Assembly (NCBI GenBank): GCA_020628305.1
Contig: JAHDFH010000003.1
Span: forward strand, 22,033 to 86,032
DNA: 64,000 nucleotides
From: Acidimicrobiales bacterium
GTDB taxonomy: Bacteria; Actinomycetota; Acidimicrobiia; Acidimicrobiales; SZUA-35
Reading direction: 5' to 3'
Shown here: positions 18,282 to 40,411 of the stretch, piece by piece
How the letters are laid out: every line of letters starts with the position of its first letter
How positions within the stretch are numbered: the first letter of the stretch is position 1
Notes under the pieces: model-generated
The model's database searches: none
What the model saw: only the letters and a program-made list of their open reading frames with translations
What the model was told of the DNA's origin: nothing
Program-made: the position numbers and the translations under genes

Positions 18282-19067
18282 GTGACTTACCTCGACAAGA
18301 TCATTGACTTCCACCGCCAGCGAACCCAAGCTGACCGACGCAACATCTACGCCGTCAAAGAAGCCGCCCAGCAAAAACCCATGCCCCCAAGCTTCGCTGG
18401 GTCGATCCAAAAGACATCAGCTGTGTCTGATGTTGCCCTGATAGCCGAAATCAAAAGAGGTTCACCGTCTAAGGGACAATTTGACGTGTCGGGGCTACTC
18501 CCCGTCGAGGGCTGGGCGCAACAGTACGCTGAGGCTGGAGCCAATTGTCTTTCTGTGCTGACAGACTCACAACACTTCTTTGCTGAGCCAGAGGATTTGG
18601 CTTCGGCTGCGAAGACGAAGTTACCTATCTTACGCAAAGACTTTACTGTTTCTCAACTCGACGTTCTTGATGCCAAGATCATGGGCGCATCAGCGGTGCT
18701 TCTGATTGTTGCTGCTTTATCTGATCAGGAGTTAGAAGAGTTCTACGGACTGGCCACCGAGATAGGAATCGACAGCTTGTTTGAAGTCCATTCCGACGAA
18801 GAGTATCGGCGAATCAAGCACTTGGCACCAAAGATCGTTGGCGTCAATCAACGAGATCTGCAGAGCTTTGAAGTAGACATCAATCGCGCTGTGGAGGTGG
18901 CTGTTGCTCTTGAGAGCACCACTATTAAAGTTGCTGAATCAGGAATCGAAAGCCGAAAAGATGTTGAGGTTCTGACCAAAGCAGGCTTTGATGCAATTCT
19001 TGTCGGCACCTCGATCGTCGAGAGCTCAAACATTCAGGAACAAATTCGTTCACTGCTCGGAAGTTAG
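18282..19067 (+). CDS. trpC: indole-3-glycerol phosphate synthase
   Basis: GTG start. It has YLDKI, IAEIKR.SPSKG, LSVLTD..FF, LRKDF, EVH and GVN.RDL motifs. Confidence 0.92.
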   Translation: MTYLDKIIDFHRQRTQADRRNIYAVKEAAQQKPMPPSFAGSIQKTSAVSDVALIAEIKRGSPSKGQFDVSGLLPVEGWAQQYAEAGANCLSVLTDSQHFFAEPEDLASAAKTKLPILRKDFTVSQLDVLDAKIMGASAVLLIVAALSDQELEEFYGLATEIGIDSLFEVHSDEEYRRIKHLAPKIVGVNQRDLQSFEVDINRAVEVAVALESTTIKVAESGIESRKDVEVLTKAGFDAILVGTSIVESSNIQEQIRSLLGS

Positions 19068-19900
19068 ATCAGCTCCTCTATTTCAATTGTGGCCCCCGAT
19101 TCGGCACCTGTTGCCCGGGGTTCGATATGCGAGCGTTTGATCAGCGCTAAGCCAACCGTGACGCCGTCGCCTGATGCTATCGAGGTAACACGGCCAATGC
19201 CTTGGTGATTGCTGGAATAGAGTTCTTCCTTAGAGAAGGTACTGGTACTTCTAACTCTGGTGAGCCGCACGGGAGGAGCCACCGACCTCGAATCCATGCG
19301 AGCTACTAGCTCTTGACCAACGTAGCAACCTTTATTGAAATCAACGGCCCCTTCAACGACTCCAACAGAGGCGGGAATAGTCTCAGCATCAATTTCCAAA
19401 CCATAGGCTGGCACTCCAGCCTCTATGCGCGCCAAATCGTAATTGCCCTGATCTGACAGCTCACTTGGAAAGTCTAGATAGTCCCCTCCGAACCAGGCTG
19501 GCCAAAAACAGTCGACCATTTCCGGCGCTTCAACTTCTTCCCAAGTTGATAGCAAGGCCTTCACCATGTCGTGAGACTTGCTACGTACTGAACCCACTTG
19601 CCGGACACTTAGATTGAAACTGACATTTGACCGCAGCACAAACCTTTTTAAACGCCCCATGAACGCTTCACCTCGCCCAGCTTGCAGGTAGGCCTCAAAC
19701 GATTCTTGACTAGTGCGCTTTAGCCTGAACCATGCCACCATCTTGCCTTGAGGGCTCAAGAGAAGTGATGGCGAAGTTTCGCCCACTGCTAGGCCCGCTA
19801 CGTTCGAGCTCACCTGACCGTGCAAGAAGCTTTCGGCATCAGCCCCTTCTACAGTTACCACCTCTAGTGACCTTAAAGCTACATGAACGTCGTTGTTCAC
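19064..19900 (-). CDS. ygfZ: folate-binding YgfZ/GcvT-like protein
   Basis: It has the signature FNKGCYVGQELVARMDSR of the YgfZ family. It overlaps the trpE stop by 4 nt. Confidence 0.75.
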   Translation of the reverse strand: MNNDVHVALRSLEVVTVEGADAESFLHGQVSSNVAGLAVGETSPSLLLSPQGKMVAWFRLKRTSQESFEAYLQAGRGEAFMGRLKRFVLRSNVSFNLSVRQVGSVRSKSHDMVKALLSTWEEVEAPEMVDCFWPAWFGGDYLDFPSELSDQGNYDLARIEAGVPAYGLEIDAETIPASVGVVEGAVDFNKGCYVGQELVARMDSRSVAPPVRLTRVRSTSTFSKEELYSSNHQGIGRVTSIASGDGVTVGLALIKRSHIEPRATGAESGATIEIEELI

Positions 19901-21399
19901 TTTGACTCGGTTCTTGAAAACATTTGCCGAGCTCCTGTAACGGCTGCCAACAGGACTTTAGCCTTGTTGAAACATTCAGCGTCTTCAGCTTCGGGCTGAG
20001 AATCAGAAACGATCCCAGCGCCAGCTTGGACATAACAACCGCTTTGGTCCCAGAACATTGTTCTTATTGTGATGGCTGTGTCCATGTTGCCTGAAAAGTC
20101 AAAATACCCGACAACACCTGCATAAGGGCCTCGGCTAATTGGTTCTAGTTCAGAGATCAGCTCCATGGCCCTAACCTTAGGGGCACCAGAAACAGTCCCT
20201 GCAGGAAACGTTGCCTTAAACACCTCCACCACGCTTTTGTCCGCACTCAATGTGCCCGACACTTGCGAAGTTAGGTGCATAACGTGGCTGTAGCGCTCCA
20301 GCTCCATGGTCTGATCAACTTCAAGAGATCCGAACTCGCAAACTCTCCCGACATCGTTGCGCGCAAGGTCGACCAACATAACGTGTTCTGCAATTTCTTT
20401 GGGATCAGCTTCGAGGCATTTTGCCAGAGCTTCATCTTCGTCTGGCGTCGCTCCACGAGGCCTGGTGCCGGCAATGGGCCTTGAGGTGACCCGGCCATCA
20501 GCGACTCTCACCAAAGCTTCAGGAGAACAGCCAACCAAGGATAACTCTTCGTTTTGCAAGTAATACATATAGGGGCTGGGGTTGGTTTGCCTTAGAACTC
20601 GGTATACATCAAGCGGCTCGGCCGGATCACTGATTCTGAATCTTTTCGATAGAACTACCTGAAATATGTCACCCTTGGCGATGTATTCTTTAGCCTTTTC
20701 GACAGCTTGACAGTACTGATCTGTGGACGATACTGGCGAATACTCACACACCCCACCGTCTTTAGGGGGGTGTACCAAAGGTTCTGAAATTGGTGTTGCC
20801 CCGTCGGCTGCAAACAAATCCAAGGAGGTACACGCTGAGTCATACAGACTTCGCAATTCCTCCCTACTAGCGCCACTAGGAATATATGCCGCGCTAATAA
20901 GGGTGACTTGCTGCGTCCAGTGATCAAAAACTGCGAGGTCACCTATCAAAGAGACAACCGATGTAGGTGAGACACCTTCACCACTTGCCAACCCAATGTT
21001 TTCAATCTCGTCGATCGTTTCGTACCCCCAGAAACCAACCAGTCCAGAATTCAAAGGAGGGAGGTCGATATTCTTTGGCGCCTTTAGGTTAGAAACAAGA
21101 TGATTTACAGCCGCAAGGATGCCTTGATCAAGCGGAGTATCGCTGACTGGCAATGCACCCTCCACTTCAACGTTTCGGCCACGAGAAACTAAAGTCGCCT
21201 TGGCACGACGGCCCACGAAAGAATAGCGGTTAGCTGTTGCATCATCTTCTACGGACTCAAGCAAAAAGCCACGCTCATTTCGGACGCAGCGAAGAAAGAT
21301 CCCAATTGGAGTTGTCAAATCAGACAAGAGCTTTCGCCAAACAGGCACAACGGTATGGTCTGTGGCCAGGTCAACAAACTCATCAAAGGTAAGGCTCAT
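19897..21399 (-). CDS. trpE: anthranilate synthase component I
   Basis: It has LLESV...........RYSFVG and NPSPYMYYL (Trp-feedback motifs). It has PIAGT (Ala rather than the PabB Lys) and a chorismate-binding C-terminus (GPYAG..GY). Confidence 0.9.
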   Translation of the reverse strand: MSLTFDEFVDLATDHTVVPVWRKLLSDLTTPIGIFLRCVRNERGFLLESVEDDATANRYSFVGRRAKATLVSRGRNVEVEGALPVSDTPLDQGILAAVNHLVSNLKAPKNIDLPPLNSGLVGFWGYETIDEIENIGLASGEGVSPTSVVSLIGDLAVFDHWTQQVTLISAAYIPSGASREELRSLYDSACTSLDLFAADGATPISEPLVHPPKDGGVCEYSPVSSTDQYCQAVEKAKEYIAKGDIFQVVLSKRFRISDPAEPLDVYRVLRQTNPSPYMYYLQNEELSLVGCSPEALVRVADGRVTSRPIAGTRPRGATPDEDEALAKCLEADPKEIAEHVMLVDLARNDVGRVCEFGSLEVDQTMELERYSHVMHLTSQVSGTLSADKSVVEVFKATFPAGTVSGAPKVRAMELISELEPISRGPYAGVVGYFDFSGNMDTAITIRTMFWDQSGCYVQAGAGIVSDSQPEAEDAECFNKAKVLLAAVTGARQMFSRTESK

Positions 21400-21746
21400 A
21401 GATACAGCCCCGTGTGAGAATCATCCAGCCGACTGGCTGCTACAGCGTGAACGTCACGCTCTCTCAGGATTATGTAGTCACGGCCAGAAACCTCGACTTC
21501 ATATCTGTCTTCAGGGTTGAACAGAACGCGATCTCCGAGTTCGATTGACCGAGCATTCGGCCCAAGGGCCACAACCACCGCCCATGTGAGTCGTTTCTCG
21601 ACTTGGGCGGTCGCGGGTATCAGTATCCCGCCTGTTGATTTCCGGTCACCATCGGCCTGTTCGATATCAACCAAAAGCCGATCGTTTAACATCTTTATAG
21701 CCAGTCTATCGCTACTCTGAATATCGCTCGGTTGTGCCATGAACAT
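21396..21746 (-). CDS. GroES/Cpn10-fold protein with C-terminal extension ending GLYL
   Basis: It aligns by eye to GroES: I.ML.DRLLV.....D...STGGILIP..A......W..VVALGP......GDRVLF.......V...G.DYIILRERDV.AV. About 13 extra residues follow (ASRLDDSHTGLYL). Its stop overlaps the trpE ATG (ATGA). Confidence 0.7.
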   Translation of the reverse strand: MFMAQPSDIQSSDRLAIKMLNDRLLVDIEQADGDRKSTGGILIPATAQVEKRLTWAVVVALGPNARSIELGDRVLFNPEDRYEVEVSGRDYIILRERDVHAVAASRLDDSHTGLYL

Positions 21747-21889
21747 GCAACTTTAGCAGCAAAGCTAGGTCTTGAGTACCACAAGTTCTATTGCAGGCGA
21801 ACTGCCGCGATACTAGCTACAGATTCTTAGGAAAATGTCGATTAAACTACGGCGAGGAGTTGTTGGCGTTGCGAGCTGAATCATTCAAA

Positions 21890-22873
21890 TTGGTACCGAG
21901 AAAGAAGATTTTTGGCATGTTCGCTCTTTGCGTTGCCTGCATTGGCCTCACAACCTCTGGCAACGACCCTTCCTACGCCCACACAACCCTTGGTGAAATT
22001 CCGGACCAACTAGCTTCAGGCGAAGCTGCTAACGCAACCCAAGACACCGCCAACAGTAGCTCGAACCCCAACGTTGATTCTTTTGAAACTAAAACCCAAG
22101 AGCAAGCAACGTCTGGCTCACAGGGGGACCCTAACAACAGAGCCACGGACAGCGCTTCGACGAACAACCCCAACGGTCCGAGCGACAGCCAAACTAACGG
22201 AACTTCAACCCTAGGTTCATCCATTGCTTCGCCTAACAACAACTCGGCTGTCCCTTCAACAGCCACGGGCCAAACTGCACAATCAGCAACACAAACTACT
22301 TCAGCACCTTCGCAATCCAATAACCAACCAACCACAACAGTTGCCGTAACGCAACCACCAACAACGCAACCTCCAACTACTCCAGCGCCCGCACCAAGCT
22401 ATTCTGTGACAGCAATGGAGCGCGAAATTCTAAACCTGATTAACGAATTTCGCTCCAGCCCTAACGGTCGACTAAAACGCGTCAAGCCGCTCCCTTCAGA
22501 ATGTTCTAGCACGGCGGGGCTCAGTCCTTTGATTCTCAACAACGCAGCCTCAGTTGAGCTTTCAAGAGACTGGTCACAGAAGATGGCCGCTGCCAACGTA
22601 ATGTCACATCGAGCAAGCTCCGAGCAACGCACGATACTAGAGCGCATAGGAGCTAGCTTTTACACCTGGGGTGAGAATGTCGCCTGGCAGAAGGGATATC
22701 GAACAGCGTCGGGCGGAGACGCTGCTGTAGCGCTTGTATTCTTTGAAGGCTGGCGGGAATCCGATTCTCATTTCTGCAACATGGTCAACCCCCGGTTCAC
22801 CCACACTGGCATTGGACACCACTATGACCCCAACAGTGGGCGAGACTGGGCTACGCAGAACTTTTACGGTTAA
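21890..22873 (+). CDS. secreted CAP/SCP (YkwD-like) domain protein with Ser/Thr/Asn/Pro/Gln-rich linker
   Basis: The signal peptide begins at in-frame TTG 21890 (LVPRKKIFGMFALCVACIGLTTSG); an alternative ATG lies at 21917. A low-complexity linker of about 170 aa includes TQPPTTQPPTT. The C-terminal CAP pattern is MSHR...GENVAW...W..S..H..NM..P.FTH.GIG. Confidence 0.75.
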   Translation: MVPRKKIFGMFALCVACIGLTTSGNDPSYAHTTLGEIPDQLASGEAANATQDTANSSSNPNVDSFETKTQEQATSGSQGDPNNRATDSASTNNPNGPSDSQTNGTSTLGSSIASPNNNSAVPSTATGQTAQSATQTTSAPSQSNNQPTTTVAVTQPPTTQPPTTPAPAPSYSVTAMEREILNLINEFRSSPNGRLKRVKPLPSECSSTAGLSPLILNNAASVELSRDWSQKMAAANVMSHRASSEQRTILERIGASFYTWGENVAWQKGYRTASGGDAAVALVFFEGWRESDSHFCNMVNPRFTHTGIGHHYDPNSGRDWATQNFYG

Positions 22874-39220: not shown

Positions 39221-39838
39221 CTAGTAGTTTTCTAACAGCTCAACCTGAGCCCATCCCCAAGCCAGCGTGTACTCAGATTTTGTTCCCGCAACCTTGTGAA
39301 CTTGAACGAATTTTGGAGGGTTTGGAAATTGGATCGTTCGACACTGCTCTCCGTACTTGGCAACCATCTTCGATTCGTCAAATTGATCGATCTCAAACCG
39401 TTTAGCCAGGCGCCGCGCCCAGGCTCGTTCTTCGCCACCAGGCCGGCCTCTTGGCACGGGGTTCGGGTCGACCACACCTTCCAACAGAACAAGAGCTGAT
39501 TCATCTCCAGCCCTTAGGGCAAATATGACATCCTCATCAGGGAAGGCCACCCTAGCCTTGCGTCTAACAGCATCAGACAGACTCTGAACCACTCGGGCAG
39601 ATCCCGCAGCTGCTAGGCCGAACAAAACAGTGGGAGTGCCACCAATTCTTTCCAAGGTCGCCAACACAAAGCCACATATGTTCGAGTTGTTGCGTGCAAT
39701 GAAGGCAGTCACCCACAAGTCTCGCTCTTTTGAGAGGATGCCAAATGCGGTTTCGCCAAAACCAGAGAGTTGAGCCATTTCCTCGAGATCGATCTCTGAG
39801 AGGCTTGAACAATCTTGGTTTGTAATGGCGATAGACAC
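39221..39838 (-). CDS. hypothetical protein (possibly acyltransferase/GNAT-like fold)
   Basis: 205-aa ORF co-directional with bpa and 81 nt downstream of it. No diagnostic motif was recognised. Its composition and lack of competing ORFs suggest it is a real gene. Confidence 0.35.
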   Translation of the reverse strand: MSIAITNQDCSSLSEIDLEEMAQLSGFGETAFGILSKERDLWVTAFIARNNSNICGFVLATLERIGGTPTVLFGLAAAGSARVVQSLSDAVRRKARVAFPDEDVIFALRAGDESALVLLEGVVDPNPVPRGRPGGEERAWARRLAKRFEIDQFDESKMVAKYGEQCRTIQFPNPPKFVQVHKVAGTKSEYTLAWGWAQVELLENY

Positions 39839-39919: not shown

Positions 39920-40411
39920 CTAGAGGTAGACGCCGCCGTTGTCGGAGCTATCTGGGCCCGGAGGCAAACCTTGGGTTTGAATTTGCTCCAGTTGTTTGCG
40001 CGCTGCTGCCTGCTGTGCAAACAACGTTGCCTGGATGCCATGGAAGAGACCTTCAAGCCAACCGACTAACTGGGCTTGCGCAACCCTTAGTTCTGGGCCA
40101 GTTGGTATTTCGTGGTCATCGAACGGCAAAGCAAGACGTTCTAGTTCCTCTTGCAAATCAGGCGATAAAGCGTCCGCTAGCTCAGTGACGGACGTTTCGT
40201 AGATCTCTTTCAGCCGGTCACGGCCAGGCTCATCTAATTCTGTTGCTTTCACTTCTTCAAGTAGCTGGCGAATCATTGATCCTATACGCATGACTTTGGC
40301 TGGCTCGGCAATAGTACCTGATTTGCTCTCTTCATCTTTGGGTTCAACGATTTCCGGTTTAGCTGAAGCTTCTTTGCCATCTTTAGCTGATGTCACATCT
40401 TCAGAATCCAT
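39920..40411 (-). CDS. bpa: bacterial proteasome activator Bpa (PafE) homologue
   Basis: It closely matches my recollection of M. tuberculosis Rv3780: PAKVMRIGSMIRQLLEEV, AQAQLVGWLEGLFHGIQ..LFAQQ.AAR.QL. The C-terminus ends GVYL, versus GQYL in Mtb. Confidence 0.85.
   Translation of the reverse strand: MDSEDVTSAKDGKEASAKPEIVEPKDEESKSGTIAEPAKVMRIGSMIRQLLEEVKATELDEPGRDRLKEIYETSVTELADALSPDLQEELERLALPFDDHEIPTGPELRVAQAQLVGWLEGLFHGIQATLFAQQAAARKQLEQIQTQGLPPGPDSSDNGGVYL

What the first reader, a model, noticed from the sequence alone, without database searches (positions are those of the whole stretch)
21396..21746. GroES-fold protein with a C-terminal G-L-Y-L tail, translationally coupled to trpE: candidate sevenfold proteasome-docking ring
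Seen in sequence:
- The 116-aa product aligns along its length with Cpn10/GroES, including the STGGILIP mobile-loop region.
- It carries an extra tail of about 13 residues, ASRLDDSHTGLYL, that ends at the stop codon.
- The only other protein in the window ending in Gly-hydrophobic-Tyr-Leu is the Bpa homologue at 39920-40411 (GVYL).

Established knowledge: in mycobacteria the C-terminal GQYL motif of Mpa and Bpa inserts into pockets of the heptameric 20S alpha-ring and opens the gate. GroES is itself a heptameric ring.

Inference: a Cpn10-fold heptamer with seven GxYL tails would be symmetry-matched to the 20S core particle. It could be a cap or adaptor that, to my knowledge, has not been described.

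The gene is not next to groEL. It heads a tightly overlapped groES-like/trpE/ygfZ operon with ATGA junctions, which is also unusual.
Basis: partly seen in the sequence, partly recalled or inferred. Interest (0 to 1): 0.7.

Follow-up and report, generated by a model that had tools for sequence, protein, structure and literature searches.

The report
GroES-like protein with proteasome-docking tail
This gene belongs to a large, undescribed actinobacterial family of GroES-like ring proteins that all end in the short tail known proteasome activators use to plug into the bacterial proteasome, so it may be a new proteasome cap, though no binding has been shown.

Summary
ORF 21396-21746 (-) is a Cpn10/GroES-fold protein (Pfam E 8e-18; Foldseek top hits all Cpn10). 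It scores far below every NCBIfam GroES cut-off and lacks the 9-residue roof hairpin. It is never near groEL in 90 related loci.

The tail is the striking part:
- Every intact relative collected ends in T-G-(L/M/Q)-Y-L, about 470 proteins down to about 46% identity.
- The tail follows a linker that varies in sequence but is fixed at 9-10 residues.
- Tail codons vary synonymously, so selection acts on the peptide.

The family is widespread in Acidimicrobiia (at least 583 species genomes). It also occurs in Actinomycetes: Cellulomonas, Sanguibacter, Cellulosimicrobium, Isoptericola, Xylanimonas and Actinocrinis.

The trpE coupling is lineage-specific. Acidimicrobiia show hisF-cpn-hisI-trpE. Actinomycetes pair the gene with the peroxiredoxin bcp.

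A Bpa gene ending GVYL sits in the same window, which implies this genome has a 20S proteasome.

I could not test co-occurrence with prcAB across carriers, heptamer formation, or binding. Best reading, about 45%: a sevenfold ATP-independent 20S cap or regulator. Rivals are a specialised GroEL co-chaperonin, a ClpP cap, or another tail receptor. I found no description in the literature.

The parts
21396..21746 (-). Gene for the Cpn10/GroES-fold paralogue. It is 116 aa from the first ATG, and the public call starts at codon 3.
   Evidence: An exact-match protein, P0001, is in public data.
21441..21698 (-). Cpn10 core, residues 17-102. It is a beta-barrel with the roof hairpin deleted.
   Evidence: Pfam PF00166 E 8.4e-18. 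AF2 strands at 23-28, 54-61, 73-76, 82-86, 89-95 and 99-103. Foldseek top 36 hits are all Cpn10/GroES/Gp31, TM 0.5-0.77. Canonical GroES needs a 9-residue insertion at the roof position when aligned to the family profile.
21588..21662 (-). Mobile-loop-like segment, residues 29-53 (EQADGDRKSTGGILIPATAQVEKRLTW).
   Evidence: G40, I43, P44, T46, A47, L53 and W55 are invariant across 119 aligned family members. Residues 32-37 have pLDDT below 50. The segment resembles the GroEL-binding loop of canonical GroES (alignments).
21411..21437 (-). Linker, residues 104-112 (ASRLDDSHT). It varies in sequence but is fixed in length, and is predicted disordered.
   Evidence: Entropy is 2.4-3.1 bits at positions -12 to -6. 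Linker length is 9-10 residues in 344 of 350 members. pLDDT is below 50 for residues 107-111.
21399..21410 (-). Terminal G-L-Y-L, residues 113-116, followed directly by the TGA stop at 21396-21398.
   Evidence: Entropy is 0.05, 0.45, 0.00 and 0.06 bits at positions -4 to -1 in 454 distinct tails. All synonymous codons and all three stop codons are used across 84 loci.
19897..21399 (-). trpE (anthranilate synthase component I). Its ATG overlaps the stop of the GroES-like gene (ATGA).
19064..19900 (-). ygfZ/CAF17-like folate-binding protein. Its GTG start overlaps the trpE stop (GTGA).
39920..40411 (-). Bpa (bacterial proteasome activator) homologue ending GGVYL. It serves as a proxy for a 20S proteasome in this genome.
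   Evidence: PF10759 E 4.6e-61. The literature states that Bpa occurs only in 20S-bearing actinobacteria (PMC8223512).

Best explanation
The gene encodes a member of a widespread, so far undescribed actinobacterial paralogue family of the co-chaperonin Cpn10/GroES.

Shown:
- It has a GroES beta-barrel core without the roof hairpin.
- It has a highly conserved mobile-loop-like segment.
- It has a disordered linker of fixed length (9-10 residues).
- It has an invariant extreme C-terminus, T-G-(L/M/Q)-Y-L.

Inferred:
- Like other Cpn10 proteins, it forms a heptameric ring. Without the roof hairpins that ring would have an open centre.
- Its seven tails insert into the seven inter-subunit pockets of the 20S proteasome alpha-ring. 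The GQYL tails of Mpa/ARC and Bpa/PafE, and HbYX tails in archaea and eukaryotes, dock this way: penultimate Tyr in the pocket, terminal carboxylate on a conserved alpha-subunit Lys.
- The ring would then be a symmetry-matched, ATP-independent cap that opens or regulates the gate. Alternatively it could template alpha-ring assembly.
- The conserved loops may act as a second contact with the alpha-ring surface, by analogy with the activation loops of 11S activators.
- Its placement in amino-acid-biosynthesis operons (Acidimicrobiia) or beside a peroxiredoxin gene (Actinomycetes) would tie its expression to starvation or oxidative stress.
For: 1. The fold is Cpn10.
2. The tail is conserved in every intact relative:
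   - 120 of 120 close hits.
   - 84 of 84 genomic loci.
   - 143 of 144 Micrococcales-side hits and cluster members fit G-(L/M/Q)-Y-(L/M); the other ends DMYL.
   - 119 of 119 further Actinomycetes hits.
   - 88 of 150 representatives at 50% identity. The rest look like frameshifts, truncations or read-throughs that still contain TGLYL.
3. The tail is anchored to the true C-terminus. Entropy is near 0 bits at -4, -2 and -1, against 2.4-3.1 bits in the linker, and linker length is fixed.
4. Synonymous codon variation and variable downstream DNA show that selection acts on the peptide, not on the overlapping start or RBS.
5. Rare members carry exactly GQYL, the Mpa/Bpa motif (P0256, P0382). The Q of GQYL is reported as not essential (PMC12288473).
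6. Bpa ending GVYL is in the same window.
7. Named carriers are nearly all Actinomycetota, the bacterial phylum in which 20S proteasomes are 'nearly universal' (PMC4255298). One MAG labelled Acidobacteria looks mislabelled.
8. It is not a housekeeping GroES. It scores 48 bits against cut-offs of 96 or more, has the roof hairpin deleted, and has no groEL within 10 kb in 90 loci.
9. There is structural precedent for a Cpn10-family ring capping a sevenfold protease: Chlamydomonas Cpn11/20/23 on ClpP (PDB 7ekq; bioRxiv 10.1101/2021.07.26.453741).
Against: - There is no physical or structural evidence of binding. Heptamer formation is assumed from the fold.
- Co-occurrence with prcA/prcB was not tested. 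The carriers include MAGs labelled Bifidobacteriaceae, a family whose cultured members are reported to lack 20S genes (PMC4254994; PMC3511204).
- The family does not appear among the hits for the best-studied proteasome-bearing genera (Mycobacterium, Streptomyces, Rhodococcus). It cannot therefore be a core proteasome component.
- No proteasome gene lies within 10 kb in any of 90 loci.
- The mobile loop is conserved and GroES-like, so GroEL binding is not excluded.
- Whether the GroES C-terminus points towards the same face as the loops was not checked here.
Confidence: 0.45

Rival explanations
1. It is a specialised second co-chaperonin that still works with GroEL, for example with the stand-alone GroEL paralogue common in actinobacteria. 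The tail would serve a chaperonin-related purpose, such as extra avidity for the apical-domain groove or substrate contact.
For: - The mobile-loop-like segment (S-x-G-G-I-L-I-P-A-T-A) closely resembles the GroEL-binding loop and is invariant in the family.
- The fold and the strands that form the subunit interface are retained.
- Public annotation calls it co-chaperone GroES or GroES family chaperonin.
Against: - It is never adjacent to groEL in 90 loci.
- It is far below all GroES equivalog cut-offs.
- The roof hairpin that closes the folding chamber is deleted.
- Groove binding would not explain the invariant Gly at -4, Tyr at -2 and a strictly terminal position.
- No solved GroES carries such a tail.
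Confidence: 0.2
2. It caps or regulates the heptameric ClpP1P2 protease rather than the 20S, as the chloroplast Cpn11/20/23 co-chaperonin caps ClpP.
For: - There is a direct structural precedent: co-chaperonin mobile loops insert into ClpP hydrophobic clefts and repress proteolysis (PDB 7ekq).
- The best PDB sequence match of the family profile is the roofless N-domain of Cpn20 from that complex.
- ClpP is present in all actinobacteria, so no phyletic conflict could arise.
Against: - Known ClpP docking uses internal loops (IGF/LGF or the mobile loop), not a free C-terminal G-x-Y-L.
- The tail matches the actinobacterial 20S motif, including rare GQYL variants.
- No clpP lies near the gene.
Confidence: 0.08
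3. The tail docks to some other receptor or is a regulatory element of the protein itself. Candidates are a PDZ or tail-specific protease, a C-terminal degron, or an enzyme of the neighbouring pathways such as TrpE, HisI or Bcp. The resemblance to GQYL would then be coincidental.
For: - Translational coupling to trpE in the window and conserved synteny with hisI/trpE in Acidimicrobiia.
- A conserved divergent pairing with bcp in Actinomycetes.
- Possible presence in lineages that may lack 20S.
Against: - The neighbours differ between classes while the tail does not, so no single neighbour explains it.
- No other receptor for C-terminal G-x-Y-L in actinobacteria turned up in the reviews read.
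Confidence: 0.2
4. It is a chance ORF or an annotation artefact.
For: None beyond the small size of the ORF.
Against: There are hundreds of orthologues at 46-90% identity, with purifying selection and conserved synteny.
Confidence: 0.01

Closest known systems
Cpn10/GroES co-chaperonin (Pfam PF00166)
   Same: - Same fold. About 31% identity to M. tuberculosis Cpn10 in the structural alignment.
- A GroES-like mobile loop.
- Conserved first and last strands, which form the heptamer interface in GroES.
   Different: - No roof hairpin.
- Below all NCBIfam GroES cut-offs.
- Not in a groES-groEL operon.
- Carries a 13-residue linker plus G-L-Y-L tail that no solved GroES has.
Bpa/PafE and Mpa/ARC, the actinobacterial proteasome activators with a C-terminal GQYL
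   Same: - An extreme C-terminal G-x-Y-L preceded by a flexible segment.
- The motif is conserved across orthologues.
- Predicted ring architecture.
- Actinobacterial distribution.
- Bpa in this very window ends GVYL.
   Different: - No sequence or fold relationship.
- Bpa is a dodecamer and Mpa a hexamer, so both mismatch the sevenfold alpha-ring. A Cpn10 ring would match it.
- Position -3 is usually L or M rather than Q.
- Binding has been demonstrated for Bpa and Mpa but not here.
11S activators (PA26/PA28), heptameric ATP-independent caps of eukaryotic 20S
   Same: The proposed logic is the same: a sevenfold ring, C-terminal tails in the alpha pockets, a second loop contact and an open central channel.
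   Different: - Unrelated all-helical fold.
- 11S tails lack the penultimate Tyr (PMC6017811).
- No bacterial counterpart is known.
- Everything on this side is inferred.
Chloroplast co-chaperonin Cpn11/20/23 capping ClpP (PDB 7ekq)
   Same: - A Cpn10-family sevenfold cap sits on a sevenfold self-compartmentalised protease.
- The Cpn20 N-domain also lacks the roof insertion and is the best PDB sequence match.
   Different: - The partner is ClpP, not 20S.
- Docking is by mobile loops, not by a C-terminal tail.
- The effect is inhibitory.
Proteasome assembly chaperones with HbYX tails (Pba1-Pba2/PAC1-2, archaeal PbaA/PbaB); recalled from general knowledge, not examined here
   Same: They are non-ATPase proteins that use HbYX-type C-termini to sit on the alpha-ring.
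   Different: Different folds and oligomeric states. No evidence here for a role in assembly.

Membership tests
Cpn10/GroES (PF00166) | Sequence match above the curated Pfam threshold | tested here: met
   64.6 bits against 21.1, E 8.4e-18, residues 17-102.
Cpn10/GroES (PF00166) | GroES beta-barrel fold | tested here: met
   AF2 model with core pLDDT 81-89. Foldseek top hits are all Cpn10/GroES/Gp31, probability 1.00, TM up to 0.77.
Cpn10/GroES (PF00166) | Flexible mobile loop with a hydrophobic tripeptide | tested here: met
   GGILIP is aligned to the GroES loop. The segment has low pLDDT and invariant residues.
Housekeeping co-chaperone GroES (NCBIfam equivalogs) | Score above the equivalog or subfamily cut-off | tested here: not met
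   The best score is 48 bits against a cut-off of 96. All 14 models are below their cut-offs.
Housekeeping co-chaperone GroES (NCBIfam equivalogs) | Roof beta-hairpin closing the dome | tested here: not met
   Canonical GroES sequences need a 9-residue insertion at this position relative to the family profile.
Housekeeping co-chaperone GroES (NCBIfam equivalogs) | groES-groEL operon | tested here: not met
   No GroEL match within 10 kb in 90 loci or in the window.
Housekeeping co-chaperone GroES (NCBIfam equivalogs) | Heptamer that binds GroEL with nucleotide | not testable with these tools
   This needs biochemistry or multimer modelling.
Actinobacterial 20S interactors with a GQYL/HbYX tail (Mpa/ARC, Bpa/PafE) | G-x-Y-L (Hb-Y-X) at the extreme C-terminus | tested here: met
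   GLYL is followed directly by the stop codon. Rare GQYL variants exist in the family.
Actinobacterial 20S interactors with a GQYL/HbYX tail (Mpa/ARC, Bpa/PafE) | Motif conserved in orthologues | tested here: met
Actinobacterial 20S interactors with a GQYL/HbYX tail (Mpa/ARC, Bpa/PafE) | Co-occurrence with prcA/prcB and absence from 20S-lacking lineages | tested here: inconclusive
   - Bpa is in the same window.
- Named carriers are nearly all Actinomycetota (one MAG labelled Acidobacteria looks mislabelled).
- No hits come from cultured Corynebacterium or Bifidobacterium among about 480 listed proteins.
- Whole genomes could not be inspected.
- MAGs labelled Bifidobacteriaceae carry the gene.
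Actinobacterial 20S interactors with a GQYL/HbYX tail (Mpa/ARC, Bpa/PafE) | Homology to Mpa or Bpa | tested here: not met
   Only Cpn10 is matched. Any membership would be functional, not evolutionary.
Actinobacterial 20S interactors with a GQYL/HbYX tail (Mpa/ARC, Bpa/PafE) | Tail-dependent binding to the alpha-ring and gate opening | not testable with these tools
   No multimer modelling or experiment was available.
11S-type heptameric ATP-independent activators | Heptameric ring with an open channel, docking by C-termini plus activation loops | not testable with these tools
   Inferred only, from the Cpn10 fold, the roof deletion, and the conserved loop and tail. There is no homology.

The most novel reading that the evidence does not exclude
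Actinobacteria recruited a roofless GroES paralogue as a symmetry-matched (7:7), ATP-independent cap of the 20S proteasome. Seven G-L-Y-L tails would anchor it in the alpha-ring pockets and seven conserved loops would act on the gate. It would be a bacterial analogue of the eukaryotic 11S activators, built on a chaperonin-lid fold. Its expression from amino-acid-biosynthesis or peroxiredoxin-linked loci would couple proteolysis to starvation or oxidative stress.
Probability: 0.4. Interest if true: 0.9.

Novelty: new variant of a known kind. Interest (0 to 1): 0.75.

Why it matters
Only three interactors of the bacterial 20S are known: Mpa/ARC, Bpa/PafE and Cpa. All mismatch its sevenfold symmetry, and all were found starting from Mycobacterium tuberculosis.

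This family is absent from the hits for that organism, so an M. tuberculosis-based motif search would not find it (PMC4254994).

If it binds the 20S, it would be:
- the first symmetry-matched cap of a bacterial proteasome;
- a new use of the co-chaperonin fold;
- a handle on how ATP-independent proteasomal degradation is wired to metabolism and stress in Acidimicrobiia, which are abundant in the environment, and in cellulolytic Actinomycetes.

It is directly testable with a small recombinant protein and a four-residue truncation. Even if the partner turns out to be GroEL or ClpP, a conserved tailed GroES paralogue in hundreds of species is currently mis-annotated as 'co-chaperone GroES'.

Tried and rejected
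1. Tail conservation as a by-product of the overlapping trpE start or RBS. Rejected: the tail codons vary synonymously, all three stop codons occur, and the downstream gene and spacing differ between loci.

2. The trpE/ygfZ coupling as a functional clue. Rejected as a family property:
   - In Acidimicrobiia the common order is hisF-cpn-hisI-trpE-ygfZ-trpC, which is the ordinary his-trp supercluster.
   - Actinomycetes members sit by bcp, rph and rdgB instead.

3. Search for prcA, prcB, groEL, clpP and bpa within 10 kb of the gene in 90 loci (1.5 Mb). Nothing was found.
   - The memory-typed GroES query did recover the family at 28-37% identity.

4. Literature searches for a described GroES-like proteasome interactor, and for the terms GLYL plus proteasome. 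Nothing was found.

5. Literature searches for prcAB presence in Sanguibacter, Cellulomonas and Promicromonosporaceae. Nothing usable was found. My recollection that these genera have prcAB is unverified and is not used as evidence.

6. The non-tailed 'representatives' in the 50% identity library. These were inspected and set aside as frameshifts, truncations or read-throughs; several still contain TGLYL internally.

7. Geometry of the GroES C-terminus relative to the mobile loops. This could not be obtained. The structure tool returns no coordinates, and the one paper found says only that the terminal residue is flexible.

8. A direct check for a canonical groES in the same genomes was not possible with the available look-ups.
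Full report
**1. What is at the coordinates**

ORF and fold:
- The ORF 21396..21746 (minus strand) encodes 116 aa from the first ATG. The identical public protein P0001 is called from the third codon, giving 114 aa.
- Pfam Cpn10 matches residues 17-102 (E 8.4e-18).
- Fourteen NCBIfam GroES models also match, but the best reaches only 48 bits against a curated cut-off of 96.
- Residues 104-116, ASRLDDSHTGLYL, lie outside the Cpn10 match and end at the stop codon.

Junctions and neighbours:
- The stop overlaps the ATG of trpE as ATGA.
- The next junction, trpE to a ygfZ/CAF17-like gene, is GTGA, not ATGA.
- trpC lies just beyond, on the other strand.

Bpa and other proteasome-related genes:
It is on the minus strand and ends GGVYL.
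- Of 324 frames of 60 or more codons in the window, only these two end in G-hydrophobic-Y-L.
- The window carries no detectable groEL, prcA, prcB or clpP.

**2. Fold**

- An AlphaFold2 model built on 119 relatives has a confident beta-barrel core. Blocks covering residues 51-100 average pLDDT 81-89.
- Low confidence is confined to the N-terminus (1-13), the loop (32-37) and the tail (107-111, 113-115).
- Foldseek against the PDB returns only Cpn10/GroES/Gp31 chains at the top. These include M. tuberculosis Cpn10 at 31% identity.
- A family profile aligned to PDB sequences shows that canonical GroES needs a 9-residue insertion where the roof hairpin sits.
- The best match is the naturally roofless N-domain of Chlamydomonas Cpn20.
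- No solved Cpn10 extends into the tail positions.

**3. The tail is a conserved, terminal, peptide-level feature**

Counts across the searches:

| Set | Result |
|---|---|
| Closest database relatives, 70-91% identity | 120 of 120 end GLYL |
| Representatives of 50%-identity clusters | Of 150: 83 GLYL, 2 GMYL, 1 each GQYL, GLYV, CLYL |
| Second search, seeded from a Sanguibacter member (hits plus cluster members) | Of 144: 122 GLYL, 18 GMYL, 2 GLYM, 1 GQYL, 1 DMYL |
| Third search, seeded from a MAG labelled Bifidobacteriaceae | 119 of 119 end G-(L/M)-Y-L |

The remaining 50%-identity representatives are fragments, frameshifts or read-throughs. Several of them still contain TGLYL internally.

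Pooling 454 distinct tails:
- Entropy is 0.05, 0.45, 0.00 and 0.06 bits at positions -4 to -1.
- Entropy is 0.73 bits at -5 (Thr).
- Entropy is 2.4-3.1 bits at -12 to -6.

The linker is 9-10 residues in 344 of 350 members. It is rich in Ala, Asp, Glu, Ser and Gly.

Across 84 genomic loci:
- The four tail residues use 4, 5 (plus one ATG for Met), 2 and 6 different codons.
- All three stop codons occur.
- The DNA downstream differs from locus to locus.

The conservation is therefore on the peptide and its free C-terminus, not on a translational-coupling signal.

**4. Other conserved features**

- In a 119-sequence alignment spanning both classes, 23 columns are invariant.
- These include the loop residues G40, I43, P44, T46, A47, L53 and W55.
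- They also include the L-R-E-x-D-x-H-x-V block (L94, R95, E96, D98, H100, V102) of the last strands, and Y115. R97 is nearly invariant.
- The loop resembles the GroEL-binding loop of GroES (alignments).
- An N-terminal low-complexity extension of very variable length precedes the core in many homologues.

**5. Distribution**

- The 80 best loci are all Acidimicrobiia-type MAGs or genomes: Acidimicrobiales, Microthrixaceae, Iamiaceae and Ilumatobacteraceae. A few carry evidently wrong labels.
- The family also occurs in class Actinomycetes. RefSeq isolates include Sanguibacter, Flavimobilis, Cellulosimicrobium, Isoptericola, Oerskovia, Promicromonospora, Xylanimonas, Myceligenerans, Luteimicrobium, Sediminihabitans, Antribacter and Cellulomonas.
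- MAGs labelled Actinocrinis, Propionibacteriaceae, Micrococcales and Bifidobacteriaceae also carry it.
- Public names are 'co-chaperone GroES' or 'GroES family chaperonin'.
- Among about 480 listed proteins, none is named as Mycobacterium, Streptomyces, Rhodococcus, Corynebacterium or a cultured Bifidobacterium.

**6. Genomic context**

In Acidimicrobiia:
- The dominant order is hisF, the gene, hisI, trpE, ygfZ-like, trpC. This order was seen in 47 of 84 loci, and most of the rest are truncated versions of it.
- hisI is the immediate downstream gene in 49 loci and trpE in 13 (examples).
- This is the ordinary actinobacterial his-trp supercluster. The window's direct coupling to trpE is a minority variant.

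In Actinomycetes:
- The gene is not near trpE.
- In five loci it is divergently paired with, or within one gene of, a Bcp-type peroxiredoxin. The wider neighbourhood holds thioredoxin and rdgB, plus rph in one locus.
- In the Bifidobacteriaceae-labelled MAGs it follows rph-rdgB and a small coupled ORF.

No groEL, prcA, prcB, clpP or bpa lies within 10 kb in any locus.

**7. Interpretation**

What the anatomy points to:
- It has a ring-forming fold, a flexible linker of fixed length and an invariant extreme C-terminal G-hydrophobic-Y-L. This is the anatomy of a docking tail.
- In Actinomycetota the known receptor for exactly this motif is the set of pockets between 20S alpha subunits. Those pockets take the GQYL tails of Mpa/ARC and Bpa/PafE (PMC8223512; PMC12288473).
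- The glutamine of GQYL is reported as non-essential.
- L-Y-L fits the general HbYX rule.
- A few family members carry GQYL itself, and Bpa in this window has GVYL.
- ARC proteins from proteasome-less actinobacteria lose the motif (PMC3511204). Retention of the motif here therefore argues for a living receptor.

Structural inferences:
- Cpn10 proteins are heptamers, so seven tails would match seven pockets.
- Deletion of the roof hairpin would leave the ring open on its axis.
- The chloroplast co-chaperonin Cpn11/20/23 has been seen by cryo-EM capping the sevenfold ClpP ring. A Cpn10 ring on a protease is therefore not without precedent.

Limits:
- I take the 20S-cap reading as the best single explanation, at about 0.45.
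- The oligomeric state, the direction in which the C-termini point, binding, and the effect on the gate (activation, inhibition or assembly) are all inferred.

**8. What keeps the confidence below one half**

- I could not inspect whole genomes. Co-occurrence with prcAB is therefore untested, except indirectly for this genome through Bpa, which is reported only in 20S-bearing species.
- Carriers labelled Bifidobacteriaceae are a potential counter-example. Their closest relatives are only other MAGs, not cultured bifidobacteria. That would also fit joint loss of the gene and the 20S in the cultured lineage.
- The conserved GroES-like loop leaves GroEL, or by the chloroplast precedent ClpP, as possible partners.
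- The family is missing from the classical proteasome model organisms.

**9. Novelty**

- Full-text searches combining GQYL, HbYX, GLYL, GroES, Cpn10, heptamer and bacterial proteasome found no description of such a protein. This includes 2025-2026 reviews of the bacterial proteasome.
- The ProEnd HbYX catalogue paper does not mention chaperonins.
- The original motif search that found Bpa was restricted to M. tuberculosis genes, so it could not have found this family.
- NCBIfam has no model for it.
- I rate it a new variant of known kinds: a Cpn10 paralogue carrying the actinobacterial proteasome-docking motif. It has a substantial chance of being a new type of proteasome cap.

Noticed in passing
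The ygfZ-like ORF uses a GTG start.
   Followed up: yes
window 19064-21746 compared with loci L002-L083: The window's genome has no hisI between the GroES-like gene and trpE. hisI is the immediate downstream gene in 49 related Acidimicrobiia loci and trpE in only 13.
   Followed up: partly
L084 9444-10333; L085 9446-10354; L087 9484-10414; L089 9388-10297; L090 8684-10384: In class Actinomycetes the tailed GroES-like gene is divergently paired with a Bcp-type peroxiredoxin (AhpC-TSA/Redoxin). In Actinocrinis it is one gene away (DUF3618). This suggests shared regulation with an oxidative-stress gene.
   Followed up: partly
L091 9735-10004 and L086 7811-8071: A small ORF of 86-89 aa with no Pfam match overlaps the start of the GroES-like gene by 4 nt in MAGs labelled Bifidobacteriaceae.
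   Followed up: partly
L084 10990-20333 (Sanguibacter sp. HDW7): Directly downstream of the GroES-like gene lies a block of genes that looks like an integrated mobile element: HTH, MerR/HTH_17 excisionase-like, ParB-like, FtsK-gamma and many small unknown ORFs.
   Followed up: no
window 39221-39838 (-): A 205-aa ORF between dnaE and bpa has no Pfam match.
   Followed up: no
window 21791-22873 (+): Divergent from the GroES-like gene is a CAP-domain (cysteine-rich secretory protein family) protein. It has a long Ser/Thr/Pro/Asn-rich low-complexity region and a probable signal or membrane segment.
   Followed up: partly
L031, L055, L082: The contigs are labelled Acidobacteria bacterium, Bifidobacterium sp. 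and Bifidobacterium breve. They carry a GroES-like gene 70-75% identical to the Acidimicrobiia query, and I take these as probably mislabelled or mis-binned MAGs.
   Followed up: no
P0162 (3803 aa): A trimeric autotransporter adhesin (YadA head, stalk and anchor) gives 12 weak Cpn10-like matches to the query. I take this as a repeat-driven spurious similarity, unrelated to the family.
   Followed up: yes
homologues P0005-P0140: Many family members are called with N-terminal low-complexity, acidic or Ser/Ala/Pro-rich extensions of up to about 90-190 residues. It is unclear whether these are real or start-codon miscalls.
   Followed up: no
L088 10001-10516: A divergent member (P0271, tail ETGLYL) lies next to heme-biosynthesis genes and a LarA-like gene, with RuBisCO, PRK and transketolase nearby. 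This is a third type of context.
   Followed up: no
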